Positions 6,051 through 39,477 of a DNA stretch of 58,940 bases are shown here, piece by piece. The notes beneath the pieces are model-generated. The model ran no database searches. It was given only the letters and a program-made list of their open reading frames with translations, and had not been told where the DNA came from. This DNA is from Patescibacteria group bacterium (GTDB lineage: Bacteria; Patescibacteriota; Minisyncoccia; UBA9983), in contig JAHIOX010000027.1 in the NCBI GenBank assembly GCA_018895015.1, positions 1 through 58,940 on the forward strand, read 5' to 3'. Numbering within the stretch: position 1 is the first letter of the stretch; each line of letters begins with the position of its first letter. The translations under genes were made by a program, and so were the position numbers.

Positions 6051-7070
6051 ATGCAGGTAGAAATCAAAAAACTTCCGGGGTCGGAGATTGAGATTATCGG
6101 TGGGATATCAGCCGATAATTTTGAAGTTTTTAGGCCGCGGGCCGTAAAAGAAATTTCTGACAGCATTGGAATTGACGGTTTTAGGCCAGGCAAAGCGCCG
6201 GAGAAAATTTTAATTGAAAAAGTGGGAGAAATGGCCGTTCTTGAAAAAATGGCAAATTTCGCTTTGGACAAGGAATATATTAAAATTATTGAAGAAAATA
6301 AAATAAAGGCGATTGGAAGGCCGGAAATCACAATTACTAAAATTGCCAAAAATAATCCGTTGGAATTTAAGATAAAGACAGCGGTTCTTCCTGAAATAGA
6401 ACTTCCCGATTACAAAGAGATTGCCGGTGAAATTATTGGAAAAGAAGAAGAAATTATTGTTGAAGACAGCGAAGTTGCCAAGGCGCTGGATTATTTGGTA
6501 AAAGCGCGCGCTGAAAAAAAGGAAAACGGAGAAGCGGTTATTCCGGAGCTGAATGATGAATTTGCCAAAAGCGTCGGCAAATTTGGTTCATTGGAAGAGC
6601 TTAAGCGTGCTATTAAAAACAATTTAAAAGAAGAAAAAACAGTAAATTCAGCGCAAAAGAAAAGAATTGAGATTTTGGATAAAATTATAGAATCCTCAAA
6701 AATGGATGTGCCGAATATCCTTGTTGTAGCGGAAAAAAACAAAATGAGGGAAGAAATGAAGGCGAGCATAACCCAAATGGGCGTTAAGTGGGAAGATTAT
6801 TTAAGCCATATTAAAAAAACAGAGGAAGAAATTGAGAAAGACTGGGATCAAGACGCGTTAAAGCGCGCGAAATATAATTTGGCGATAGAAGAAATCGCCG
6901 TTTTGGAGAAAATAGACGTTCCTGAAGAAGAATTGGGGCCGGAAACAGATAAATTAATGGAATATTATTCAGCGCGCTATAAAGATATTGACCGAGACCG
7001 GGTTAAGGCGTACACTTATGACATGATTAAAAACCAAAAAGTCTTTAATTTGCTGGAAAATAAAAAGTAA
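6051..7070 (+). CDS. tig: Trigger factor lacking the FKBP domain
   Basis: [10 protein letters not shown] ribosome-binding signature, ELNDEFAK, C-terminal domain; only 339 aa; precedes clpP. Confidence 0.9.
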
Positions 7071-21492: not shown

Positions 21493-22560
21493 CTAAAACG
21501 GGTTTTTGGCACCGCGGACTTCAAAGTGTACGTGGCAACCGGTAGATTTTCCTGTTGAGCCGATGTAGCCGATAACTTGGCCTTTTACCACATGCCATCC
21601 GGCCCACACTATATTTTTACTTAAATGGGAGTAAAGGGTTTGAGTCCCGTTGGGGTGCCTTATAACAATATAATTTCCATATCCCGCGTTCCAGCCATAG
21701 TCTTTGCTTATGATTACATCTCCGTTTGCGGAGGCGAAAATCGGAGTGCCGCAGGAATCCGCTAAGTCAACGGCGTTATAACCGTGCAATCCTTGAGATT
21801 TTCTGCCGTCAGCAATCGGCCTTAAATAATAACCGGCATAAAATGGAGTGTTTGTTGTAGCTGTATTTTTATATGCGGCAACAGGAGCTGTTTTTTCTTT
21901 TTGCTGAGACGAATAATCTTCGCCGTTGGGTATTATTATTTCTTGTCCTTCCAATAAACTGCTCTCTGACGCAAGCCCGTTGAATTGGGTAATTTCATCA
22001 ATGTCGCCATTGAATTTTTTAGCTATGCTTTTTACGCTGTCGCCTTTTTTAACTGTGTATTGAATGCCTTGCACAGGCAAAATGATAAGCGTTTGTCCCG
22101 GAGTGATTTTGCCTCCTGACTTTATGTCATTGGCCCAAATAATGGTGTTTACGGAAACGCCGAACATTTCGGCGATTTGAGATAAGTTATCGCCTTTGCG
22201 CACAACATAGACGCTAATCTGGTCTTGCGTTGGTTTTGCTTCTTCAATATCTGCGATTGTTCCCATCGGGCCGGAGTTTGGCAAAAGGGCGTTGTTATTT
22301 ACGATTGTTATGTCGCCGCCGCCTTTTGCCGCGTTCATATCCGGATTTAGCGCGGCTTCAAGCAAGGGAATAGTTTGAGAGTTTGAAATAATTGTTTTCG
22401 CGCCAGTGTCGTTAATGCCAAGTAAATTTTCTATAAAAGAGAAAATGCCGGCATGGGCAAGTTTTGGCAAAACAACAAAAGCGGCTATGAATATAGCCAA
22501 AATAAAAAACTTCAATATATGGCTCTGCGCCGGTGTTTTAGCGGCATCAGAGCTTTGCAA
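21493..22560 (-). CDS. Secreted 2xLysM + M23 peptidase
   Basis: Signal peptide (LAHA), YVVRKGDNLSQIA and YTVKKGDSVKSIA LysMs, YSHL and TGCHVHFEV M23 motifs. Confidence 0.92.
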   Translation of the reverse strand: MQSSDAAKTPAQSHILKFFILAIFIAAFVVLPKLAHAGIFSFIENLLGINDTGAKTIISNSQTIPLLEAALNPDMNAAKGGGDITIVNNNALLPNSGPMGTIADIEEAKPTQDQISVYVVRKGDNLSQIAEMFGVSVNTIIWANDIKSGGKITPGQTLIILPVQGIQYTVKKGDSVKSIAKKFNGDIDEITQFNGLASESSLLEGQEIIIPNGEDYSSQQKEKTAPVAAYKNTATTNTPFYAGYYLRPIADGRKSQGLHGYNAVDLADSCGTPIFASANGDVIISKDYGWNAGYGNYIVIRHPNGTQTLYSHLSKNIVWAGWHVVKGQVIGYIGSTGKSTGCHVHFEVRGAKNPF

Positions 22561-22692
22561 GTTAGTAGAAATAGGCTTAAATTAAATAGGATTTACGGTA
22601 AAATTAAGAAAAAAAACGACCATTTGCGACATTTCAATCCTAGTCTTAATTTTATCTAACCTGTTTGGCAAGTCAACCCCGTTAGAAATTGG

Positions 22693-30817: not shown

Positions 30818-32686
30818 ATGAATAATAAATTTAAAAAATTCCGCCCGCTTGCTTTGTTCGGAGTCATAAGCGTTTTGGCTGTTTTGTTTTTTTTTGATAT
30901 TCATTACGCTCACGCCGGCGTATGGGATTTGATTTGGAATACAACGAAAAATGGCATTGCCACTCTCGCGGCGTATATATTGTATTATCTTGTGTTTATG
31001 CCAATATCCGGCGTATTTTGGGCAGCCGGCCAATTTTTTAATGTTTGCGTCGCCATTTCGCTGAACAGCGAAGTTTTTAACACAAAAATGGTTGTTGATG
31101 GATGGGCCATATCGCGAGATGTCGCGAACCTGTTTTTTATATTTATTCTTCTTTATATCGCTATCGCGACAATTCTGCAGCTAAGCAATTACGGGACGAA
31201 GCAACTGTTAGGCAAGATTATAATTATCGCTTTGCTTGTGAATTTCAGCTTGCTCATAACAAGAGTAATTGTTGATTCGTCAAATATTTTGGCTTTGGAG
31301 TTTTATGATTCCATTTCTGTTGAGGGAGGGACAGCGACTTCAATAATGGCCGGCGGAACCGCCAAAGATTTGTCCCAGGTTTTTGTGAGCGGTTTTAATC
31401 CTCAAAATTTATTAAAATCCAAAAATTTCGCAAGCACCATAGATGAAGGGGTTATAGACACTCTGCTGGTGGTTGTGGTTTCAATGTTGCTTGCCTCAAT
31501 ATTGGTGTTGGTCGCGGCATTTGTTCTTTTTGCCGCGGGCATCCTTTTTGTGATTCGTACTGTTACGCTGTGGCTTTTAATGGTTTTGGCGCCATTGGCT
31601 TTTTTGGCAATGACGCTTCCGGCGACAAAAGGCCACGCGTCTAAGTGGTGGACAAAATTATTTGAGCAGTCGTTTTTCGCTCCGGTTTTTATGTTTTTAT
31701 TTTATCTTGTCGCGAAAATAATCGATTCCGGCTTTCTTAATAATATGGTAACAAGCATAGATGTCGGCGGCGGAGTGAGCGAGGGCTTTAAAGAAACTTT
31801 TTCAACTTTCGCGGTTGTTTCAATACAATTTGTTTTTCTAGGCGCTTTGATGATAGCATGTCTTGTTATCGCGAAACAAATGGGCGCGTACGGGGCGACA
31901 ACAATGCAAAGCTGGGGCCAGAGCGCAAGAAAATGGGGGCAGGGATACGCGGGCAAGGTCGCGCTCCGCCGTCTGTCTCCGCTCGCGCGCGAAATGGAAT
32001 CAGGCAAAGCGCAGGAGCGCAGCAAATATAATCCCATGCGGCTTCCAATGTGGGCGGCGCGCAAGGCTGGAAAAGCCGCGCCGTATATTCCGGGAGCGCA
32101 GGCTGGGTTGCAGACTTTGGGAACGCATTATGGCAGGGACGTTGAAGATCGGGCAAAAAATTTGGACAAATTCAGTTCGGATGAATTATCAAGAAGAATC
32201 AAGATCGCGACTTTACCTGTTGATCGCGCGGCAATAATGAAAAAACTTACCGAAAGAGGCGATATTGGCAAATTAAATGATGTTGATGTTAGAAAGGGCA
32301 AGGCATTATTGTCTAATGTGGGAATGGCAGGCGCCATAAAAGATATTGATAGATTAAGGCCTGATCTTGCCGGCACATCTGCGGAGATTAAAAAAGCCGT
32401 TAGTTATCAGAACCCCGAGCATGTGGCTAAACTTAATAAATCATTAAGTTCAAACAATGACGTTATTGAAGGCATGCTGGATCATTATAAAGCGGGGCAT
32501 ATCAGCGCGCTGGTTAATAGGGGGGATGAATTGTTTGCTGAATACGCAAAAGCGCTGGAGGCATTGGATGCATCTGGTGCTAAAAATACGGCGAATATTG
32601 CGGCGGCATTGCGAAGCCGAAAAAATGAAGGCGCGGCAAAATGGATAGAAACGACAACCGCTAAACAACTTTTGGGGCTTTCCTAA
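30818..32686 (+). CDS. VirB6/TrbL-like polytopic membrane protein
   Basis: Many TMs; RDVANLFFIFILLY, LLVNFSL, RTVTLWLLMVLAPLAF, WWTKL; upstream of prgI and virB4. Confidence 0.7.
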   Translation: MNNKFKKFRPLALFGVISVLAVLFFFDIHYAHAGVWDLIWNTTKNGIATLAAYILYYLVFMPISGVFWAAGQFFNVCVAISLNSEVFNTKMVVDGWAISRDVANLFFIFILLYIAIATILQLSNYGTKQLLGKIIIIALLVNFSLLITRVIVDSSNILALEFYDSISVEGGTATSIMAGGTAKDLSQVFVSGFNPQNLLKSKNFASTIDEGVIDTLLVVVVSMLLASILVLVAAFVLFAAGILFVIRTVTLWLLMVLAPLAFLAMTLPATKGHASKWWTKLFEQSFFAPVFMFLFYLVAKIIDSGFLNNMVTSIDVGGGVSEGFKETFSTFAVVSIQFVFLGALMIACLVIAKQMGAYGATTMQSWGQSARKWGQGYAGKVALRRLSPLAREMESGKAQERSKYNPMRLPMWAARKAGKAAPYIPGAQAGLQTLGTHYGRDVEDRAKNLDKFSSDELSRRIKIATLPVDRAAIMKKLTERGDIGKLNDVDVRKGKALLSNVGMAGAIKDIDRLRPDLAGTSAEIKKAVSYQNPEHVAKLNKSLSSNNDVIEGMLDHYKAGHISALVNRGDELFAEYAKALEALDASGAKNTANIAAALRSRKNEGAAKWIETTTAKQLLGLS

Positions 32687-32714
32687 TTAAAATCTTAATT
32701 TTTTAACAATTATT

Positions 32715-33296
32715 ATGCCAAAATTAACACCCGAACAAATTAGAAAAATTTATTTAAATCTTCCAAAAGATTTGCAAGAGGCGATTTTGAGCGTTGACAG
32801 CGCTGAAAAGATTAGAGCCATAGGAGAAAAATACCATTTGGCCATTGATAAAATGGGAGAGATGGCTGATGAGACCGGCTTGGTTATGCTTGGCTTGACC
32901 AGCCCGCGCGAATTTATTCCCAATCTGGCGGCAAGACTTAATGTTGACAAGGAGATGGCAAGAAAAATAGCGGAAGAAATTAACGGCCAGGTGTTTGTTC
33001 GCGTCAGAGAATCATTAAAAAAAGTGCATGCGATTAAGGAAGAAGGCGGTGGCAAAGAAGAGCATCCGCAAAAAGCGGAAATATTAAATGAGATAGAAAA
33101 AGAGGATGGCAAAGAAGAAACCCCGTCTATTTTAAAAGGGATTGCAGTGCCGCTTGCGCCGAGCCTGCCTGCGCAGGCAGGTGAAGTCGAGGTGCCCCAT
33201 CCTTTTGAAGCAAAGATAAAGAATGAAGTTTTCAGAATACCTCCGGAGGAAAGAAAATATAAAGGGAGCGACCCTTATAAGGAACCAATAATATGA
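32715..33296 (+). CDS. Conserved CPR-type hypothetical protein
   Basis: LPKDLQEAILS, GLVMLGL, ends DPYKEPI; inside the operon. Confidence 0.75.
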   Translation: MPKLTPEQIRKIYLNLPKDLQEAILSVDSAEKIRAIGEKYHLAIDKMGEMADETGLVMLGLTSPREFIPNLAARLNVDKEMARKIAEEINGQVFVRVRESLKKVHAIKEEGGGKEEHPQKAEILNEIEKEDGKEETPSILKGIAVPLAPSLPAQAGEVEVPHPFEAKIKNEVFRIPPEERKYKGSDPYKEPII

Positions 33297-33700
33297 GATT
33301 CCAAGTCCCTCAATTTATAGAAGTGGAAAGCAAAATTTTCGGTCCGTTAACGCTCAAGCAGTTTATTTATCTGTTGGGCGGGGCAGGAGTGATTTTCCTT
33401 TTGTATGTTGTTTTGCCATTTTGGCTTATGATTATTTTCGCTTTGCCAGTCGGCGCTTTTTCTTTAGCTTTGGCGTTTTATAAAATAAATAACCGCCCTT
33501 TTATAAAAGTGGCTGAAAGCGCTTTGAAGTATTTTATTGCGGATAATTTATATTTATGGAAGAAAAAACAACGCAAATCCGATGTTCCGCAAACTAAGGT
33601 CGTGAAAGAAACACCGCCTTCTCTTTATGTGCCTAAGCTTACGGAAAGCAAATTAAAGGATTTATCATGGAGTCTGGATATTAAAGATACGCTCAAATAA
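33293..33700 (+). CDS. PrgI-family (VirB3-like) protein
   Basis: FQVPQFIEVESKIFGPLTLKQF, two TMs, KINNRPF. Confidence 0.85.
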   Translation: MRFQVPQFIEVESKIFGPLTLKQFIYLLGGAGVIFLLYVVLPFWLMIIFALPVGAFSLALAFYKINNRPFIKVAESALKYFIADNLYLWKKKQRKSDVPQTKVVKETPPSLYVPKLTESKLKDLSWSLDIKDTLK

Positions 33701-33702
33701 TT

Positions 33703-34335
33703 ATGGCTATAGCTTCAAAAGCAACTCAAGAATTTATCCCGATAAAGGAAATTCGCGACGGAGTCGTTATTTTAAAGGACAATTCTTTGCATATTATTTT
33801 AATGGCTTCAACTTTGAACTTTGCCTTAAAGTCAGAGGATGAGCAGACCGCGATTCTTATGCAATATCAGAATTTTTTAAACTCCCTTGATTTTTCAGTC
33901 CAGTTTTTTGTTGAATCAAGAAAGCTGAATATCGGTCCGTACATCGCGACTTTAAAAAATGCGGAAGAAGAGCAGGCGAATGAATTGCTTAAAATCCAAA
34001 CGAGGGAATACATAGAATTTGTCAAAAATTTTGTGAAATCAACAAATATAGTAGCGAAAACTTTTTATGTAACGGTCGCGTATAACCCTTCTGTTTTCGG
34101 TATTAACAATAAAGGATTTCTTGGAGATATTGGGAAAAAATTTACAAGCAAAAGCGATAGCGCGCCAGGAGAACGTTTTGAAGAGCATGTGTTACAGCTT
34201 CAGCAGAGAGCATCTGTGGTTCAGCAGGGATTGGCCGGCGCCGGCGTCAGGACAGTCGCTCTTAATACGGAAGAGCTTATAGAATTATTTTATAAACTGT
34301 TTAATCCGGGGGAATTGGAAAAAGAAATAAAATAA
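33703..34335 (+). CDS. T4SS-associated protein (VirB4/TraC N-terminal-like)
   Basis: NFALKSEDEQ, FLNSLDF, LNTEELIELFY; between prgI and virB4. Confidence 0.65.
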   Translation: MAIASKATQEFIPIKEIRDGVVILKDNSLHIILMASTLNFALKSEDEQTAILMQYQNFLNSLDFSVQFFVESRKLNIGPYIATLKNAEEEQANELLKIQTREYIEFVKNFVKSTNIVAKTFYVTVAYNPSVFGINNKGFLGDIGKKFTSKSDSAPGERFEEHVLQLQQRASVVQQGLAGAGVRTVALNTEELIELFYKLFNPGELEKEIK

Positions 34336-34340
34336 AATTT

Positions 34341-36143
34341 ATGTCATTTTCAGATTTTTTTAAAAAAGAAAAAAAAGAAGAGGATATTACTCCGATTATT
34401 CCGCAAGAAATTTACGAGACCGGCGTTTTGCAGCTTCAGGACGTTATTGCTCCTTCGGCTTTGCAAATAACTCAAAATTATATCCGCATAGGGAGCAAAG
34501 TGGCAAAAATTATTTTTGTGATGGCATATCCCCGTTTTTTGGCAAGCGGGTGGTTTTCGCCGGTTATTAACCTGGATAAAGTTTTTGATATTTCTATTTT
34601 TGTGCATCCGGTTGATACGGCTTCAACTCTTAGGCAGCTTCAAAAAAAGGTTGCCGAGGTCCAGTCTCAAATCCATACAAGAGAAGAAAAAGGGCTCGTA
34701 CGCGATCCGATGCTTGATACCGCTTATCAGGACCTTGAGGATTTAAGGGATAAGCTTCAGCAGGCGCAAGAAAAACTTTTTAATGTCGGGCTTTACATCA
34801 CTATTTACGCTGACGACCTTGAAGAGCTTGACAGGCTTGAGATAGAAATAAGGTCGCTTCTTGAATCCAAGCTTGTCTATGTAAAACCGGCTCTTTTTCA
34901 GCAAAAAGAAGGCCTTGAAAGCGTTCTCCCGATTGGAATGGATAATCTGGGAATCAACACTCAACTTAATTCCTCGCCGGTCTCAAGCATATTCCCGTTC
35001 GTGTCTTTTGACCTTTCTTCGGACAAAGGAATTCTTTACGGCATCAACAGGCACAACAACAGTTTGGTTTTGTTTGACAGGTTTTCTATGGAAAATTACA
35101 ATTCAGTTATTTTCGCAAAGGCCGGTTCCGGAAAATCATACGCCGCTAAGCTGGAGGTGTTGCGGAGTTTGATGTTTGAAACAGAGGTGATTGTTATTGA
35201 CCCGGAAAAGGAATACGAATATTTAGCTGAAGTTGTTGACGGCAGATATTTTAATATCTCTTTGACTTCAAACCATCATATTAATCCGTTTGACCTTCCG
35301 CCGGTAAGGGAAGACGAATCTCCGGCGGATGTTCTGCGTTCAAACATTATCAGCCTTGTCGGCCTTTTCCGCCTTATGCTCGGCGGAATAACTCCGGAGG
35401 AAGATTCTATTATGGATAGAGCAATCACTGAAACTTACGCGGCGCGCGACATAACGCCGGAAAGCGATTTTTCTCATGCCATAGCCCCGACTCTTTCCGA
35501 TCTGGAGCTTGTTTTGGCCGGCATGGAGGGCGGGGAATCTTTGGCCCAGCGATTAAGCAAATATACCAAGGGCACATGGGCCGGTTTTATAAACCAGCCG
35601 ACAAATGTTGATATAAACAAGAAATTGGTCGTGTTTTCAATTAGAGACATGGAAGACGAGTTAAGGCCGATCGGAATGTATTTGATAACTCATTATGTAT
35701 GGAACGCGGTTAGAAAAGACATAAAGAAAAGGCTTCTTGTAATTGATGAGGCGTGGTGGATGATGAAATACGAAGACACTGCTTCGTTTTTGTTCGGCAT
35801 CGCTAAAAGGTGCAGAAAATACTATTTGGGGCTCGCGACGATTACCCAGGATGTGAATGATTTTCTTTCTTCTCCGTATGGCGCTCCGATTATCACTAAC
35901 TCCTCAATTCAGATTTTGCTTAAGCAGTCGCCGGCGACAATTGATTTGGTGCAGAAAACTTTTAATCTCACTGACGAAGAAAAATTCCTGCTTTTGGAGG
36001 CGGACGTCGGCGAGGGAATATTTTTTGCCGGCATGAAGCACGTCGCGATAAAAATTTTGGCTTCTTACACGGAAGACCAGATAATCACTTCCGACCCGTC
36101 GCAATTATTGGCAATTAAAAAGGCGAAAGAGGAATTAAAATAA
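34341..36143 (+). CDS. virB4: VirB4-like ATPase
   Basis: Walker A AKAGSGKS, VIDPEKEY, INPFDL, Walker B VIDEAW, RKYYLG, ITQD. Confidence 0.85.
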   Translation: MSFSDFFKKEKKEEDITPIIPQEIYETGVLQLQDVIAPSALQITQNYIRIGSKVAKIIFVMAYPRFLASGWFSPVINLDKVFDISIFVHPVDTASTLRQLQKKVAEVQSQIHTREEKGLVRDPMLDTAYQDLEDLRDKLQQAQEKLFNVGLYITIYADDLEELDRLEIEIRSLLESKLVYVKPALFQQKEGLESVLPIGMDNLGINTQLNSSPVSSIFPFVSFDLSSDKGILYGINRHNNSLVLFDRFSMENYNSVIFAKAGSGKSYAAKLEVLRSLMFETEVIVIDPEKEYEYLAEVVDGRYFNISLTSNHHINPFDLPPVREDESPADVLRSNIISLVGLFRLMLGGITPEEDSIMDRAITETYAARDITPESDFSHAIAPTLSDLELVLAGMEGGESLAQRLSKYTKGTWAGFINQPTNVDINKKLVVFSIRDMEDELRPIGMYLITHYVWNAVRKDIKKRLLVIDEAWWMMKYEDTASFLFGIAKRCRKYYLGLATITQDVNDFLSSPYGAPIITNSSIQILLKQSPATIDLVQKTFNLTDEEKFLLLEADVGEGIFFAGMKHVAIKILASYTEDQIITSDPSQLLAIKKAKEELK

Positions 36144-36146
36144 TAT

Positions 36147-36443
36147 ATGGAAAACGCGGAGGCAAAAACATCGCCGCTATCTTTCGGCAAAAAGATTTCA
36201 GAGCACTGGATTATTTTGCTGGCAGCCGTTATTTTTGATATTTTTGCCTTGATTCCGTTTATCAGCGTTATTTTTAATTTATGCTTTGCCGGAATTTTGT
36301 ATTTGTATTTTGCCAGCAGGGGCGATTCTAATTTTTTGAAAACAGGCCTTTTAATTGGAGGGGCAAGCGCCATTGATTTAATTTTAAGCTTTCTGCCGGT
36401 TAATGTCGGCGCCGCGTTATATAAAATTTTGAGCAAAAAATGA
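36147..36443 (+). CDS. Small membrane protein
   Basis: 98 aa with 2-3 hydrophobic segments; in operon. Confidence 0.65.
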   Translation: MENAEAKTSPLSFGKKISEHWIILLAAVIFDIFALIPFISVIFNLCFAGILYLYFASRGDSNFLKTGLLIGGASAIDLILSFLPVNVGAALYKILSKK

Positions 36444-36474
36444 TTAGTGTTATAATTAAATTAAATAAAGATTT

Positions 36475-37431
36475 ATGAAAAGAGGCGTTATAATGATTTT
36501 TTTGATAGTTTTGTTAGTCGGCATGCTGTGGTTGTCTAATTACGCAAGCGCGATTGGCGAAGATTTTATTGTTGGATTTACTCCAGAAAACCCGGGCCCT
36601 AACACAGAGATTATCGCAAAGGCGGCGAGTTATGTTTTTGACATAAATAGAGCGACTATCACATGGATTGTTAATGATAAGACAGCGCTAAAGGGCGTTG
36701 GTGAGAAAGAATTTTCTTTTAAAACAGGCGATTCGCTGTCTAGCACGCGGCTGTCGGTCGCGGTTGTTACGGAGGACGGGGAATACATAAGAAAAGATTT
36801 TTCTTTTAAGGGCACGGATGTTGACATATTATGGGAAGCTCTGACTTATACTCCTTCCGCGTATCAAGGCAAGGCGCTCCCTTCTTCTGAGTCCATGGTT
36901 AGGATAACCGCGGTGCCGCATTTTTCTGTTTTGCCGTCAAAATTGATTTATGAATGGAAAGTTGGTTACAAAAATATGCCTAGCTTGTCCGGAGCGGGGA
37001 AGCAATCATTTGTTTTAAAAATGCCTGAAAATTTTAATTCAGTTAAGGTGAGCGTGAATGTTTCCAGCTATAATAAAACTATTACGGCGGAGGAAAGTAT
37101 CAGCATATCGTCCGGAAAGCCAAAGATATTATTTTATGAATACAGCGAATTGGATGGCGCGCGGTACAACAAAGCGCTTAATAAAGAAATTCAATTAAAC
37201 GATAGCGAAATAACCATTAACGCGGAGCCATACTTTTTTTCCAGAAAAGACCTTGAGTATCTTTCATATAATTGGTCTATAAATAATCAAAAAGCGGAAA
37301 CCGAGAAATTTCCAAACTCTATTTTTTTGAAAAAAGGCGAGGGAAGCGGCGTATCCGTGATAGGATTAAAGATAGAGAACACTTTGAATATTTTGCAATT
37401 TGCAGAGAATTTTTTGCGAATAAATTTTTGA
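36475..37431 (+). CDS. Secreted beta-rich (Ig-like) hypothetical protein
   Basis: Signal peptide (YASA); repeated Y/I-x-W beta motifs; TGTTATAAT at 36448-36456. Confidence 0.7.
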   Translation: MKRGVIMIFLIVLLVGMLWLSNYASAIGEDFIVGFTPENPGPNTEIIAKAASYVFDINRATITWIVNDKTALKGVGEKEFSFKTGDSLSSTRLSVAVVTEDGEYIRKDFSFKGTDVDILWEALTYTPSAYQGKALPSSESMVRITAVPHFSVLPSKLIYEWKVGYKNMPSLSGAGKQSFVLKMPENFNSVKVSVNVSSYNKTITAEESISISSGKPKILFYEYSELDGARYNKALNKEIQLNDSEITINAEPYFFSRKDLEYLSYNWSINNQKAETEKFPNSIFLKKGEGSGVSVIGLKIENTLNILQFAENFLRINF

Positions 37432-37440
37432 CATAAAAAA

Positions 37441-38268
37441 ATGAACAAAAAAATTAAAAATTTGATAATCGCGCTGTCTGCTTGTCTGGTAATATTCCCT
37501 GTTTATGCTTTCGCTTACACGCTTTTGCAGCCATTGCCCGGGATTACGGAAGTCAGCGGAGGACAGGGATTTTCGCAATATCTGTCGTGGATTTTTAAAT
37601 TCGCGCTTATTGCCGCCGCTTTTTTGGCCGTTATCCAAATAGTCATAGCCGGTGTTGAGATGGTTGGAAGCGCCGCGAGTGAAAAGGCGCGCGGGGACGC
37701 GGAACAAAGAATTCGCGACGCGGTTTTGGGCCTTTTGCTGGCTTTTGGCGCGTGGCTTATTTTGTACACAATAAACCCGGATTTAGTAAAAATGGAATTA
37801 AACATTCCGGATATTAATATCAAAGCGGTTTCATTGTTAGAGTCTGGAGAGTTTGCCACCGTAGATAGAAATAAAATTAGCGCGGCTGCGGCGCGCGATC
37901 AGTTTTCCGAAATTGGAATTGACGTTAAATCTGAATGTCCGCTGGGCGTGAGTACGGGATGCGTTAAATTGGAAGGCATAAGGCAATCTACCATAGATGA
38001 ATTAAAAAATCTTAAAGAGCAATTTCCCGGAGCTCAAATATATGTAACAGGCGGGACAGAATCGGGGCATTCATCTGGCGCAACTTCTCACAGCAACGGC
38101 TATAAAGTTGATTTAAGATTGAACACGGAGTTAGATAAATACATTATGAAAAATTTTACTCAGGCCGGCGTGCGGAGTGATGGAGCGGAAAAATGGATAA
38201 ATCCCAAAACAGGAGCGGTTTACGCTTTGGAGCGCGGAGGCGATCCGCATTGGGATGTAGTCAGGTAG
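37441..38268 (+). CDS. Pilin-like (TrbC/VirB2-type) N-terminus fused to M15/LAS-type metallopeptidase domain
   Basis: Signal peptide, two TMs, AKGDAEQRIRDA-like helix, ILYTINPDL; C-terminal SHSNGYKVD (HxxxxxxD) and PHWDV. Confidence 0.7.
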   Translation: MNKKIKNLIIALSACLVIFPVYAFAYTLLQPLPGITEVSGGQGFSQYLSWIFKFALIAAAFLAVIQIVIAGVEMVGSAASEKARGDAEQRIRDAVLGLLLAFGAWLILYTINPDLVKMELNIPDINIKAVSLLESGEFATVDRNKISAAAARDQFSEIGIDVKSECPLGVSTGCVKLEGIRQSTIDELKNLKEQFPGAQIYVTGGTESGHSSGATSHSNGYKVDLRLNTELDKYIMKNFTQAGVRSDGAEKWINPKTGAVYALERGGDPHWDVVR

Positions 38269-38292: not shown

Positions 38293-39477
38293 ATGAACAA
38301 AAAAACAATTATAATTTTATCGGCAATAATATTTTTTCTTTTGCTTGGAGCGGGAATTTTTTGGTTTTATTTTAAAAATGGAGGGACGCCTTTTGAAGAA
38401 GGAAGCGTGCTTTCAAAATTATTTCCATTTGCGGAAAAGCGCGATTTGGAAAATCAGACTCCGGGAACTGAAATTCCGTTGGCAGAGCGCGAGGGAGGGG
38501 CGTTAATTCAAATTACAAGAAACGCGGTAAGCGGGGCCGGATTCGGGACATCAACGGTCAGATATGTGGATAAGCAAACTGGCCATATTTATGAGAGCGA
38601 TGTTGACGGCAAGAACAGCAAAAGAATTTCCAACACTACTTTTTTGAAAACTTTTGAATCCGAGTGGTCATATAACGCGGATAAGTTAGTGCTTAAATAT
38701 TTTTCAGACGAAGATTACGAGTCGTATCTTCCGGTAAAAATGTTTTCCGCCTCTCTTGGGAGCGGCGATGAGCAGTCTCCGCTAAAAGGCGTTTTCCTCC
38801 CTTTGGCGGCAAAGGAAGTTGCTGTTTCGCCTTTTGAGGATAAGATTTTTTATCTTGCCTCTGAAGAAGGGCAAACGCTTGGGATTGTCGCTGATTTTGA
38901 AAATAAAAACCAAAAGAATATTTTTAGCATGCCGTTTGGAGAATTTAACGCAAGCTGGCCCTCAAAGAAGTTAATCACATTGCTTACTAAGCCCTCTTTC
39001 GGGTCTGAAGGTTTTTTTTATTCACTTGAGCCGGTTAGCGGGAAATTTGAAAAAATAATTGGAGACATAAAAGGTTTGACGGCTTTGCTTTCGTCAAATG
39101 GCGAAATGGCAATTTACAGCAAAAGCGCGGATAAAACAATCGATACAAAGATTTTTGATGTTAAAAATAAAACATCGCAGGATTTTAATTTGACGACCTT
39201 TCCGCAGAAATGCGTTTGGGGAAAAATTTATGAAGATGTTTTGTATTGCGGAACGCCTATTGATTTAGCCAGGGCGGATTATCCGGACGAGTGGTACCAA
39301 GGAGTAGTTTCTTTTAATGACTCAATATGGATGATTAATTTTTCAACGGACGAGTCGAAAATTTTGGCCGGCGATACCGGCAGCGATGTTATTAGCCCGT
39401 TTTTAAGCAAGGACGAAGATTATTTATTTTTCATCAACAAAAAAGACAATACTCTGTGGAGTTTTAAATTAAGATAG
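38293..39477 (+). CDS. Membrane-anchored beta-propeller-like hypothetical protein
   Basis: N-terminal TM; TolB-like repeats (SEWSYNAD, AVSPFED, ASWPS, ISPFLS). Confidence 0.65.
   Translation: MNKKTIIILSAIIFFLLLGAGIFWFYFKNGGTPFEEGSVLSKLFPFAEKRDLENQTPGTEIPLAEREGGALIQITRNAVSGAGFGTSTVRYVDKQTGHIYESDVDGKNSKRISNTTFLKTFESEWSYNADKLVLKYFSDEDYESYLPVKMFSASLGSGDEQSPLKGVFLPLAAKEVAVSPFEDKIFYLASEEGQTLGIVADFENKNQKNIFSMPFGEFNASWPSKKLITLLTKPSFGSEGFFYSLEPVSGKFEKIIGDIKGLTALLSSNGEMAIYSKSADKTIDTKIFDVKNKTSQDFNLTTFPQKCVWGKIYEDVLYCGTPIDLARADYPDEWYQGVVSFNDSIWMINFSTDESKILAGDTGSDVISPFLSKDEDYLFFINKKDNTLWSFKLR

What the first reader, a model, noticed from the sequence alone, without database searches (positions are those of the whole stretch)
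37441..38268. T4SS-type pilin fused to a putative peptidoglycan-cleaving Zn peptidase
Seen: pilin-like hydrophobic N-half ending YTINPDL, then CPLGVSTGC, VTGGTESGH, SHSNGYKVD and PHWDV. Known: HxxxxxxD plus a later His is the Zn-ligand set of M15/LAS (DD-peptidase, Hedgehog) folds. Inference: a pilus subunit displaying a wall-lytic domain, useful to an epibiont breaching its host wall.
Basis: partly seen in the sequence, partly recalled or inferred. Interest (0 to 1): 0.72.

Follow-up and report, generated by a model that had tools for sequence, protein, structure and literature searches.

The report
Secretion pilin fused to wall-cutting domain
In the type IV secretion operon of an ultrasmall (Patescibacteria-type) bacterium, the only pilin-like gene is fused to a conserved, so far unnamed extracellular domain that looks like a zinc cell-wall peptidase; this may explain how these machines get through a cell wall without a separate wall-opening enzyme.

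Summary
It has a Sec signal peptide, a VirB2-like two-helix pilin module (PF18895 at family level), a disordered ~30-aa linker and a confidently folded 130-aa C-terminal domain. It lies two genes downstream of VirB4 in a monoderm-type T4SS operon, and this position is conserved in a Portnoybacteria orthologue.

The C-domain belongs to a very large family with no Pfam model (2,688 clusters at 50% identity). Across 149 representatives, H210, H217, G220 and D224 are invariant; K222, E207, E264, H270, W271 and D272 are 96-99% conserved. The spacing matches the M15/Hedgehog (LAS) zinc motif.

Formal LAS membership is not established. There is no significant Pfam, PDB-sequence, hhalign or Foldseek-PDB match. 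The only significant fold hit is a Microviridae protein labelled "Sonic hedgehog".

A peptidoglycan role is supported by other evidence. Relatives fuse the same pilin module to VanY or SLT, including in the same operon position. The C-domain also occurs with SLT, with PG-binding repeats, and next to a GH25 lysozyme.

The domain also occurs as a stand-alone secreted protein in cultured Streptomyces, Kitasatospora, Janibacter and Deinococcus, so it can be tested directly.

Verdict: observation confirmed, interpretation partly supported, a new variant of a known kind.

The parts
37441..37515 (+). Sec-type signal peptide, residues 1-25 (MNKKIKNLIIALSACLVIFPVYAFA, A-x-A site before Y26)
   Evidence: Sequence; AF2 helix 3-23. 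Cleavage is inferred from the n/h/c-region pattern.
37516..37785 (+). VirB2-like T4SS pilin module, residues 26-115: LLQPLPG motif, hydrophobic helix 43-76, charged loop (EKARGDAEQRIRD), hydrophobic helix 81-111, ending LILYTINPDLV
   Evidence: PF18895 19.4 bits for this protein. All 42 homologues hit PF18895, best 4.5e-13, and 2 hit TrbC. NCBIfam NF045849 pilin-like 1.3e-5. AF2 hairpin. It is the only pilin-HMM hit in the window.
37786..37875 (+). Flexible linker, residues 116-145
   Evidence: pLDDT below 50 for residues 125-141. Length and sequence vary among homologues and are often Pro/Ser/Thr/Gly-rich.
37876..38268 (+). Conserved extracytoplasmic C-terminal domain, residues 146-275 plus stop; member of a large unnamed family with a LAS-like metal motif
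   Evidence: AF2 pLDDT 94.4, pTM 0.88. 2,688 representative clusters at E<=1e-3. No Pfam model matches.
37933..37959 (+). CPLGVSTGC: conserved cysteine pair C165/C173 (81% and 75% conserved), probably a disulfide in an extracytoplasmic domain
   Evidence: The disulfide is inferred.
38047..38112 (+). Core motif T203-G-G-T-E207-x-G-H210-x6-H217-x2-G220-x-K222-x-D224 (putative metal ligands H217 and D224; H210 and E207 putative catalytic helpers)
   Evidence: 100% conservation of H210, H217, G220 and D224 over 149 representatives. This is the stretch aligned to Shh T-E-G-W-D-E-D-G-H-H...H141...D148 and to VanY SNHGTGVAVD.
38230..38256 (+). E264 ... H270-W-D272 (putative catalytic Glu and third metal ligand; E-x-x-H-W-D in relatives that lack the 3-residue insertion)
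   Evidence: 96-97% conserved. E119 lies at the end of strand 5 and H125 at the start of strand 6 of the domain model.
30818..36143 (+). Upstream T4SS core genes of the same operon: VirB6/TrbL-like (30818-32686), 193-aa ORF (32715-33296), PrgI/VirB3-like (33293-33700), TraC-like N-domain protein (33703-34335), VirB4 ATPase (34341-36143)
   Evidence: Pfam and NCBIfam: VirB4 CD1110 family 4.4e-111, PrgI 1.5e-11, TrbL 1.7e-4, TraC_F_IV 6.6e-6.
36147..37431 (+). Two uncharacterised operon genes between VirB4 and the fusion: a 98-aa membrane protein (36147-36443) and a 318-aa secreted protein (36475-37431)
   Evidence: no family hits. A small protein occupies the same position after VirB4 in the Portnoybacteria locus.
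38293..39477 (+). Last operon gene, 394 aa with an N-terminal TM helix, no family hit; its positional counterpart (377 aa, faint Tricorn_2nd hit) follows the orthologue in L001

Best explanation
The gene encodes a T4SS-associated, pilin-tethered cell-wall hydrolase. Shown: (1) a signal peptide; (2) a VirB2-like two-helix pilin module; (3) a disordered ~30-residue linker; (4) a well-folded 130-residue domain with an invariant His/His/Asp/Glu/His/Asp constellation. The gene lies in a monoderm-type T4SS operon, and related genes carry VanY or SLT in place of, or next to, this domain. Inferred: after Sec export and leader cleavage, the hairpin sits in the membrane with both ends outside, so the C-domain hangs in the wall zone beside the T4SS. 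H217, D224 and H270 bind a metal, probably Zn, and E264 (helped by H210 and D272) activates water, as in LAS enzymes (VanX, VanY, M15 endolysins, Hedgehog N-domain). The enzyme cuts a peptide bond of peptidoglycan. This would supply the VirB1-type wall-opening function that Patescibacterial T4SS loci otherwise seem to lack. It is undecided whether it acts only from the membrane on the cell's own wall, or is also lifted into a VirB4-driven filament and carried to the host wall.
For: ORF and motifs. Pilin module. Operon; conserved synteny in Portnoybacteria. Confident C-domain model. Large family with an invariant polar constellation whose spacing, H-x2-G-x-x-x-D then E-x-x-H, is that of M15. 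The only sequence hits in PDB are Sonic/Indian hedgehog, on exactly this motif. hhalign to Shh-N gives P=0.0095 over 33 columns, and to VanY it aligns the Zn motif. The top BFVD fold hit is a 'Sonic hedgehog'-labelled microviral protein, E=2.1e-4, prob 1.0. UniProt names two members 'Peptidase M15' and 'Peptidase M15B domain-containing protein' (a lead only). Link to peptidoglycan: pilin-VanY fusions with classical SGYR / SxHxxGxAxD / ExWH motifs, one of them at the end of an equivalent VirB4 operon; pilin-SLT-Cdomain and pilin-Cdomain-SLT chains; C-domain fused to PG_binding_1 (1.8e-29) and PG_binding_3; a Streptomyces plasmid gene with two PG-binding repeats plus the C-domain, directly downstream of a GH25 lysozyme. 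The literature notes that most Patescibacteria with VirB2-like pilins lack VirB1 (PMC12102498).
Against: No statistically significant link to any named LAS family. Pfam finds nothing, even at E<=10. The broader profile A4 finds nothing in PDB. hhalign probabilities are 1.3-4.3%. Foldseek against PDB, with a pLDDT-94 model, returns no LAS structure among its top hits (MepA only at E=1.1, rmsd 12 Å). The one significant fold hit has only TM ~0.42 and carries an automated name. K222 is invariant where M15 enzymes have Ala, and the SGYR arginine is absent. Clustering of H/D/H in 3D was not measurable. Hedgehog N-domains show that a LAS-like site can serve as a ligand rather than an enzyme. Stand-alone homologues in free-living bacteria without an adjacent T4SS show the domain is not T4SS-specific. 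No activity, localisation or expression data exist.
Confidence: 0.6

Rival explanations
1. Enzyme-display pilus. The fusion is the structural VirB2 subunit. VirB4 extracts it from the membrane into a filament whose surface carries one lytic head per subunit, or it acts as a minor or tip subunit. The filament would digest the host bacterium's wall at the contact site.
For: It is the only pilin module in the operon and in the 58.9-kb window. The pilin module is conserved as strongly as in unfused pilins (LILYTINPDLV). The ~30-aa flexible linker could let heads pack outside a filament. Pilin genes are essential for epibiotic growth in S. epibionticum (PMC10633639). C-terminal display on conjugative pilins is tolerated in F-pili (my knowledge, not tested here).
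Against: No Patescibacterial T4SS pilus has been shown to contain such fusions. The rest of the genome could not be searched for unfused pilins because the genome search was shut. Monoderm T4SS hydrolases (PrgK, TraG) work membrane-anchored without a pilus. A 130-aa head on every subunit is sterically demanding.
Confidence: 0.2
2. The C-domain is not a peptidoglycan peptidase. It would instead be a metal-binding recognition or adhesion module (as the Hedgehog N-domain is a ligand with a vestigial site), or a hydrolase for another envelope polymer or a host-surface protein.
For: No significant match to any characterised enzyme. The invariant K222 and the missing SGYR arginine depart from M15. 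The Hedgehog precedent (my knowledge).
Against: Eight (near-)invariant polar residues over a family of 2,688 clusters are more than a structural metal site needs. The domain recurs with SLT, PG_binding_1/3 and GH25, and VanY replaces it in the syntenic gene.
Confidence: 0.13
3. The C-domain is an antibacterial toxin head delivered into or onto a target cell, and the pilin module serves merely as its T4SS export adaptor.
For: Single family members are fused to WXG100 (a T7SS substrate module) and to eCIS_core. Stand-alone secreted copies occur in antagonistic soil bacteria such as Streptomyces, Kitasatospora and Myxococcales.
Against: No conserved adjacent immunity gene: the two 114-aa neighbours are unrelated, and contexts are variable. 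No downstream immunity-like gene is conserved in the window or in L001. This reading mostly overlaps with the wall-hydrolase reading, since the toxic activity would still be wall lysis.
Confidence: 0.07

Closest known systems
VirB2-like pilins of Patescibacteria (Pfam PF18895 T4SS_pilin; surveyed by Quinonero-Coronel et al. 2025, PMC12102498; essential pilin genes of Ca. Southlakia epibionticum, PMC10633639)
   Same: Signal peptide, two hydrophobic helices with a charged loop, the INPDL end motif, and a location next to VirB4, PrgI and VirB6 in a chromosomal, relaxase-less, monoderm-type T4SS operon.
   Different: It carries a 160-residue C-terminal extension (linker plus globular domain). The published surveys treat these proteins as plain pilins, and they state that most genomes with VirB2-like pilins lack VirB1, without noting fusions to hydrolase domains.
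VirB1-class peptidoglycan hydrolases of monoderm T4SSs (PrgK of pCF10, TraG of pIP501, TcpG, CwlT)
   Same: Encoded in the T4SS operon, membrane-anchored at the N-terminus, with extracytoplasmic wall-degrading domain(s). Relatives combine a glycosidase (SLT) with a second domain in one chain, as PrgK and TraG do.
   Different: The anchor is a VirB2-type pilin hairpin instead of a single TM helix. The catalytic domain is neither SLT, CHAP, NlpC/P60 nor M23, but an unclassified domain.
LAS / MD-clan zinc peptidases: M15 (VanX, VanY, S. albus DD-carboxypeptidase, phage L-Ala-D-Glu peptidases) and the Hedgehog N-terminal domain
   Same: Motif H-x2-G-x-x-x-D followed ~45 residues later by E-x-x-H. 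A strand-loop(His)-strand(Asp)-helix-strands(His) order in the model. The family member with PG_binding repeats plus the catalytic-like domain mirrors the architecture of the S. albus enzyme (my knowledge).
   Different: No significant HMM, hhalign or PDB-Foldseek match. Lys replaces the conserved Ala two residues before the Asp. TGGTE replaces SGYR. There is an extra beta-hairpin between the helix and the last His, and the second motif is H-W-D.
Pilin-VanY and pilin-SLT fusions of other Patescibacteria
   Same: The same pilin module and linker logic, and the same position at the end of the VirB4 operon (L002).
   Different: Their C-terminal domains are recognisable Pfam families (PF02557, PF01464); the one here is not.

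Membership tests
PF18895 T4SS_pilin / VirB2-like pilins | HMM match at or above the curated cut-off | tested here: inconclusive
   The window protein scores 19.4 bits against a cut-off of 26.6 (E=0.0011). All 42 full-length homologues hit PF18895 at E<=0.1, best 4.5e-13, and 83 of 149 C-domain representatives hit at E<=1e-3. NCBIfam NF045849 scores 24.8 bits against a cut-off of 40.
PF18895 T4SS_pilin / VirB2-like pilins | Cleavable leader followed by two hydrophobic helices joined by a short charged loop | tested here: met
   Sequence; AF2 helices 3-23, 43-76 and 81-111.
PF18895 T4SS_pilin / VirB2-like pilins | Encoded in a T4SS locus near VirB4 and VirB3 | tested here: met
   VirB4 at 4.4e-111 two genes upstream, with PrgI, TraC-like and TrbL-like genes further upstream; the same order is found in L001.
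PF18895 T4SS_pilin / VirB2-like pilins | Polymerises into an extracellular filament | not testable with these tools
   Needs cryo-ET or biochemistry.
LAS / MD-clan Zn peptidases (M15, Hedgehog-N, M23, M74) | Conserved His...Asp plus a distal His metal triad with H-x(3-6)-D spacing | tested here: met
   H217-x6-D224 is 100% conserved and H270 is 96%. E264 (96%) lies at E-x-x-H spacing in most relatives.
LAS / MD-clan Zn peptidases (M15, Hedgehog-N, M23, M74) | Significant sequence or profile similarity to a member family | tested here: not met
   Pfam: no LAS family at E<=10 for 44 + 10 members. PDB hmmsearch: Shh at E~1 with profile A2, nothing with A4. hhalign: VanY profile 1.6%, Shh-N 4.3% (P=0.0095), Hedgehog profile 1.3%.
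LAS / MD-clan Zn peptidases (M15, Hedgehog-N, M23, M74) | Fold match to a solved LAS structure | tested here: inconclusive
   Foldseek against PDB gives no hit at E<=1e-3; MepA 1u10 appears at E=1.1, rmsd 12. Foldseek against BFVD gives a top hit to a 'Sonic hedgehog'-labelled Microviridae protein, E=2.1e-4, prob 1.0, TM 0.43/0.40.
LAS / MD-clan Zn peptidases (M15, Hedgehog-N, M23, M74) | The three ligands converge on one metal site in 3D; zinc is bound | not testable with these tools
VirB1-class T4SS wall hydrolases of monoderms | Encoded within the T4SS operon, with an N-terminal membrane anchor and an extracytoplasmic domain | tested here: met
   (topology is predicted, not measured).
VirB1-class T4SS wall hydrolases of monoderms | Recognised peptidoglycan-hydrolase domain (SLT, CHAP, NlpC/P60, M23) | tested here: not met
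   This protein has none. Relatives carry SLT or VanY on the same pilin module.
VirB1-class T4SS wall hydrolases of monoderms | Peptidoglycan-degrading activity required for T4SS function | not testable with these tools
   Needs zymography, muropeptide analysis and genetics.

The most novel reading that the evidence does not exclude
The Patescibacterial T4SS builds an enzyme-armed filament. The sole VirB2-like subunit of this operon carries a wall-cutting head on a flexible tether, and across the phylum the same polymerisation module bears interchangeable heads (this LAS-like domain, VanY, SLT). The machine would then drill through the host bacterium's wall with its own pilus, a mode of action not known for any T4SS.
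Probability: 0.2. Interest if true: 0.85.

Novelty: new variant of a known kind. Interest (0 to 1): 0.6.

Why it matters
Patescibacteria make up a large share of bacterial diversity, and their T4SS is essential for epibiotic growth (PMC10633639), yet its function and its way through the cell wall are unknown. The published survey (PMC12102498) concluded that most of these systems lack a VirB1 wall hydrolase. Pilin modules that carry their own hydrolase-like heads would explain that gap, and they link the machine physically to wall breaching. Separately, the C-terminal domain defines a very large family that no Pfam or NCBIfam model matched (about 2,700 clusters at 50% identity). This family reaches into cultured, genetically tractable bacteria such as Streptomyces clavuligerus, Kitasatospora, Janibacter and Deinococcus. 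Its biochemistry can therefore be settled with ordinary experiments and transferred to the uncultured lineages.

Tried and rejected
1. Lipase reading: the G209-H-S-S-G213 stretch gave a weak Pfam Lipase_3 hit (E 0.03-0.08). I rejected it because residue 211 is not conserved (S/A/T) across the family.

2. Full-length Foldseek: the top hits were histidine kinases with rmsd ~20 Å, an artefact of a helical hairpin plus an alpha/beta domain. I repeated the search with the C-domain alone.

3. A broader C-domain profile (A4) against PDB found nothing, so even the weak Hedgehog hit was lost. PHROGs showed no consistent family.

4. A VanY profile seeded from pilin-VanY fusions yielded only 6 sequences, and hhalign gave 1.6%. 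A Hedgehog profile did not improve on the single sequence.

5. tblastn for phage relatives, to reach the Microviridae fold hit transitively, found no match.

6. Immunity-partner idea: the unannotated 114-aa genes next to the Streptomyces and Janibacter stand-alone copies are unrelated, and the neighbourhoods are variable.

7. A second pilin in the window: the weak pilin-HMM hit at 21496-22581(-) is only the TM helix of a LysM-M23 protein.

9. The genome search and the fetch from genomes were shut, so the rest of the genome could not be searched for unfused pilins or for VirB1.

Full report
**1. Observation**

The ORF listing gives a single ATG-started ORF at 37441..38268 (+), 275 aa. I checked the key codons against the raw DNA.

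**2. Anatomy**

- Residues 1-25 form a typical Sec leader (KKIK, a hydrophobic core, AFA before Y26).
- An AF2 model built on 42 homologues shows helix 3-23 and a helical hairpin at 43-76 and 81-111, separated by the charged loop EKARGDAEQRIRD.
- A disordered segment follows (pLDDT below 50 at residues 125-141).
- The C-terminal domain is confidently folded. Modelled alone it reaches pLDDT 94.4 and pTM 0.88.
- Its element order is: helix, helix, strand (IYVT), a loop carrying H210 and H217, strand (KVDLR, with D224), helix, three strands (the third ending at E264), and a last strand starting at H270.
- After leader cleavage, a two-helix hairpin leaves both ends outside the membrane, so the C-domain is predicted to be extracytoplasmic. 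The conserved cysteine pair C165/C173 fits that location (inference).

**3. Context**

The gene is the second-to-last of a co-oriented operon:

- TrbL/VirB6-like (30818-32686)
- a 193-aa ORF
- PrgI/VirB3-like (33293-33700, 1.5e-11)
- a TraC-like N-domain protein (33703-34335)
- VirB4 ATPase of the monoderm CD1110 family (34341-36143, 4.4e-111)
- a 98-aa membrane protein
- a 318-aa secreted protein
- the fusion
- a 394-aa protein

This matches the monoderm-type, relaxase-less T4SS described for Patescibacteria (PMC12102498; PMC10633639). A Portnoybacteria orthologue (P0008, 40% identity) has the same gene order (L001). Local HMMs show that the fusion is the only pilin module and the only copy of the C-domain in the 58.9-kb window. 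The rest of the genome could not be searched because the genome search was shut.

**4. The N-half**

The window protein alone is below the Pfam cut-off for PF18895 T4SS_pilin (19.4 vs 26.6 bits). However, all 42 full-length homologues hit that model (best 4.5e-13), and two also hit TrbC. NCBIfam's Mbov_0395 pilin-like model gives 1.3e-5. Together with the hairpin architecture and the operon, the VirB2-like assignment is sound at family level. Polymerisation is untested.

**5. The C-domain family**

An exhaustive profile search of 1.84 billion representatives found 2,688 clusters at E<=1e-3 and 1,963 at E<=1e-10. In the top 149, the domain is nearly always C-terminal. Conservation there is as follows:

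| Residue(s) | Conservation |
|---|---|
| H210, H217, G220, D224 | 100% |
| K222 | 99% |
| G205, E207, E264, H270, W271, D272 | 96-97% |

No Pfam model touches the domain, even at E<=10, and no NCBIfam model does either.

The domain is not specific to Patescibacteria. A pattern scan of species-representative genomes confirmed at least 586 loci. These include about 40%-identical copies in Kitasatospora, Streptomyces, Nocardioides, Amycolatopsis, Micromonospora, Janibacter, Deinococcus and a Myxococcales MAG. In those genomes the protein is just a signal peptide plus the domain. RefSeq calls them hypothetical proteins. UniProt labels two members 'Peptidase M15' and 'Peptidase M15B domain-containing protein'; I could not reproduce this label with current Pfam, so I treat it as a lead only. 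Copies also lie on 42 plasmid records, including Streptomyces clavuligerus megaplasmids.

**6. Is it a LAS/M15 fold?**

For:
- The core H217-x2-G-x-K-x-D224 has the spacing of the M15 motif H-x2-G-x-A-x-D. In relatives without the small insertion, E264 and H270 form E-x-x-H, as in VanX and VanY.
- The only PDB sequence hits for the C-terminal domain are Sonic and Indian hedgehog, and they align on exactly this stretch (E~1).
- hhalign of the family profile to a verified Shh-N sequence aligns 33 columns at P=0.0095. Against pilin-VanY proteins it aligns the Zn motif.
- The top BFVD fold hit, and the only significant one, is a Microviridae protein whose depositors named it after Sonic hedgehog (E=2.1e-4, prob 1.0, TM 0.43/0.40, 108 columns).
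- The element order of the model parallels Shh-N plus an extra beta-hairpin (my comparison, from knowledge of Shh).

Against:
- Foldseek against PDB, with a very confident model, gives no significant hit and no LAS structure near the top (MepA at E=1.1, rmsd 12 Å).
- The broader profile loses the Hedgehog hit.
- hhalign probabilities are 1.3-4.3%.
- K222 and the TGGTE motif depart from M15.

I therefore describe the domain as LAS-like and put superfamily membership at roughly two in three, not as established.

**7. Link to peptidoglycan, independent of the fold question**

- The same pilin module is fused in relatives to VanY (P0087, P0103, P0263-P0267, with the classical SGYR, SNHGTGVAVD and EAWH motifs), to SLT and to SLT_3.
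- A pilin-VanY gene ends an equivalent VirB4 operon next to dnaA (L002). A recognised M15B peptidase thus occupies the position held here by the unnamed domain.
- The C-domain is combined with SLT in both orders on one pilin chain (P0032 and P0181). This resembles the glycosidase-plus-peptidase design of PrgK and TraG.
- Family members are fused to PG_binding_1 (1.8e-29) and PG_binding_3.
- On a conjugative Streptomyces plasmid, a protein with two PG-binding-type repeats plus the C-domain follows a GH25 lysozyme by 66 bp.
- Single fusions to WXG100 and eCIS_core hint that the domain can also serve as a secreted antibacterial head.

**8. Mechanism**

- Shown: the architecture, conservation, operon and fusion partners.
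- Inferred: Sec export, a hairpin topology with the C-domain outside, a metal site formed by H217, D224 and H270 with E264 as the base, cleavage of a peptidoglycan peptide bond, and a VirB1-like role for the T4SS.
- Undecided: whether the protein stays in the membrane and opens the bacterium's own wall, or is polymerised or lifted by VirB4 and carried to the host wall.

**9. Comparison and novelty**

The closest known entities are the VirB2-like pilins of Patescibacteria and the membrane-anchored VirB1-class hydrolases of monoderm T4SSs; the protein combines features of both. The main survey states that most genomes with VirB2-like pilins lack VirB1 and does not mention fusions. My other literature searches found no description of a pilin-hydrolase fusion.

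Earlier AI notes of this scan report the same theme in many other genomes, and one follow-up covers this domain family. They agree with my reading but are not independent evidence.

I class the finding as a new variant of a known kind, with interest 0.6.

Noticed in passing
window 21493-22560 (-): A conventional wall hydrolase: an N-terminal membrane helix, two LysM domains and a Peptidase_M23 domain (6.5e-27). So the genome also has an ordinary LAS-type (M23) hydrolase outside the T4SS operon.
   Followed up: partly
L005:730-7779 (a MAG labelled Nanoarchaeota archaeon, JBBSYF010000001.1): A 2,349-aa giant surface protein carries the same C-domain internally (…ITSGTEGNHAEGQYSHSNGYKVDLRLN…EVDHWDV…) and has a lysozyme/SLT-like stretch (…AYRESD…) near its C-terminus. 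P0186 (2,312 aa) looks similar. Either the bin is mislabelled, or a DPANN-type archaeon carries bacterial-wall-cutting domains.
   Followed up: no
L086:597-2908 (Streptomyces sp. NBC_00334 conjugative plasmid NZ_CP108010.1): A GH25 lysozyme gene is followed 66 bp later by a protein with two PG-binding-type repeats plus the C-domain, on a MOBF/MPF_T conjugative plasmid. This is a possible two-enzyme wall-lysis cassette in a cultured organism.
   Followed up: partly
L001:5078-5515 and 6224-6604: In the Portnoybacteria T4SS operon, small PDDEXK_3 and 23S_rRNA_IVP genes are inserted between PrgI, TraC-like and VirB4. They are absent from the window's operon.
   Followed up: no
L001 and L002: In both related genomes the T4SS operon, with its pilin-hydrolase gene, lies within a few kb of rnpA-yidC-dnaA (the replication origin region), as the published survey noted. 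In the window the operon is instead followed by DHH/DHHA2 and NusA genes.
   Followed up: no
P0121 (353 aa), P0196, P0218, P0229: Some family members contain two H-x2-G-x3-D motifs. P0121 has two hits to the C-domain profile, a probable tandem duplication of the domain.
   Followed up: no
window 36475-37431 and 38293-39477: The two secreted or membrane proteins flanking the fusion (318 aa and 394 aa) have no family hits. The 394-aa protein has a positional counterpart of 377 aa with a faint Tricorn_2nd (beta-propeller) hit in L001. Both are candidate uncharacterised T4SS surface components.
   Followed up: partly
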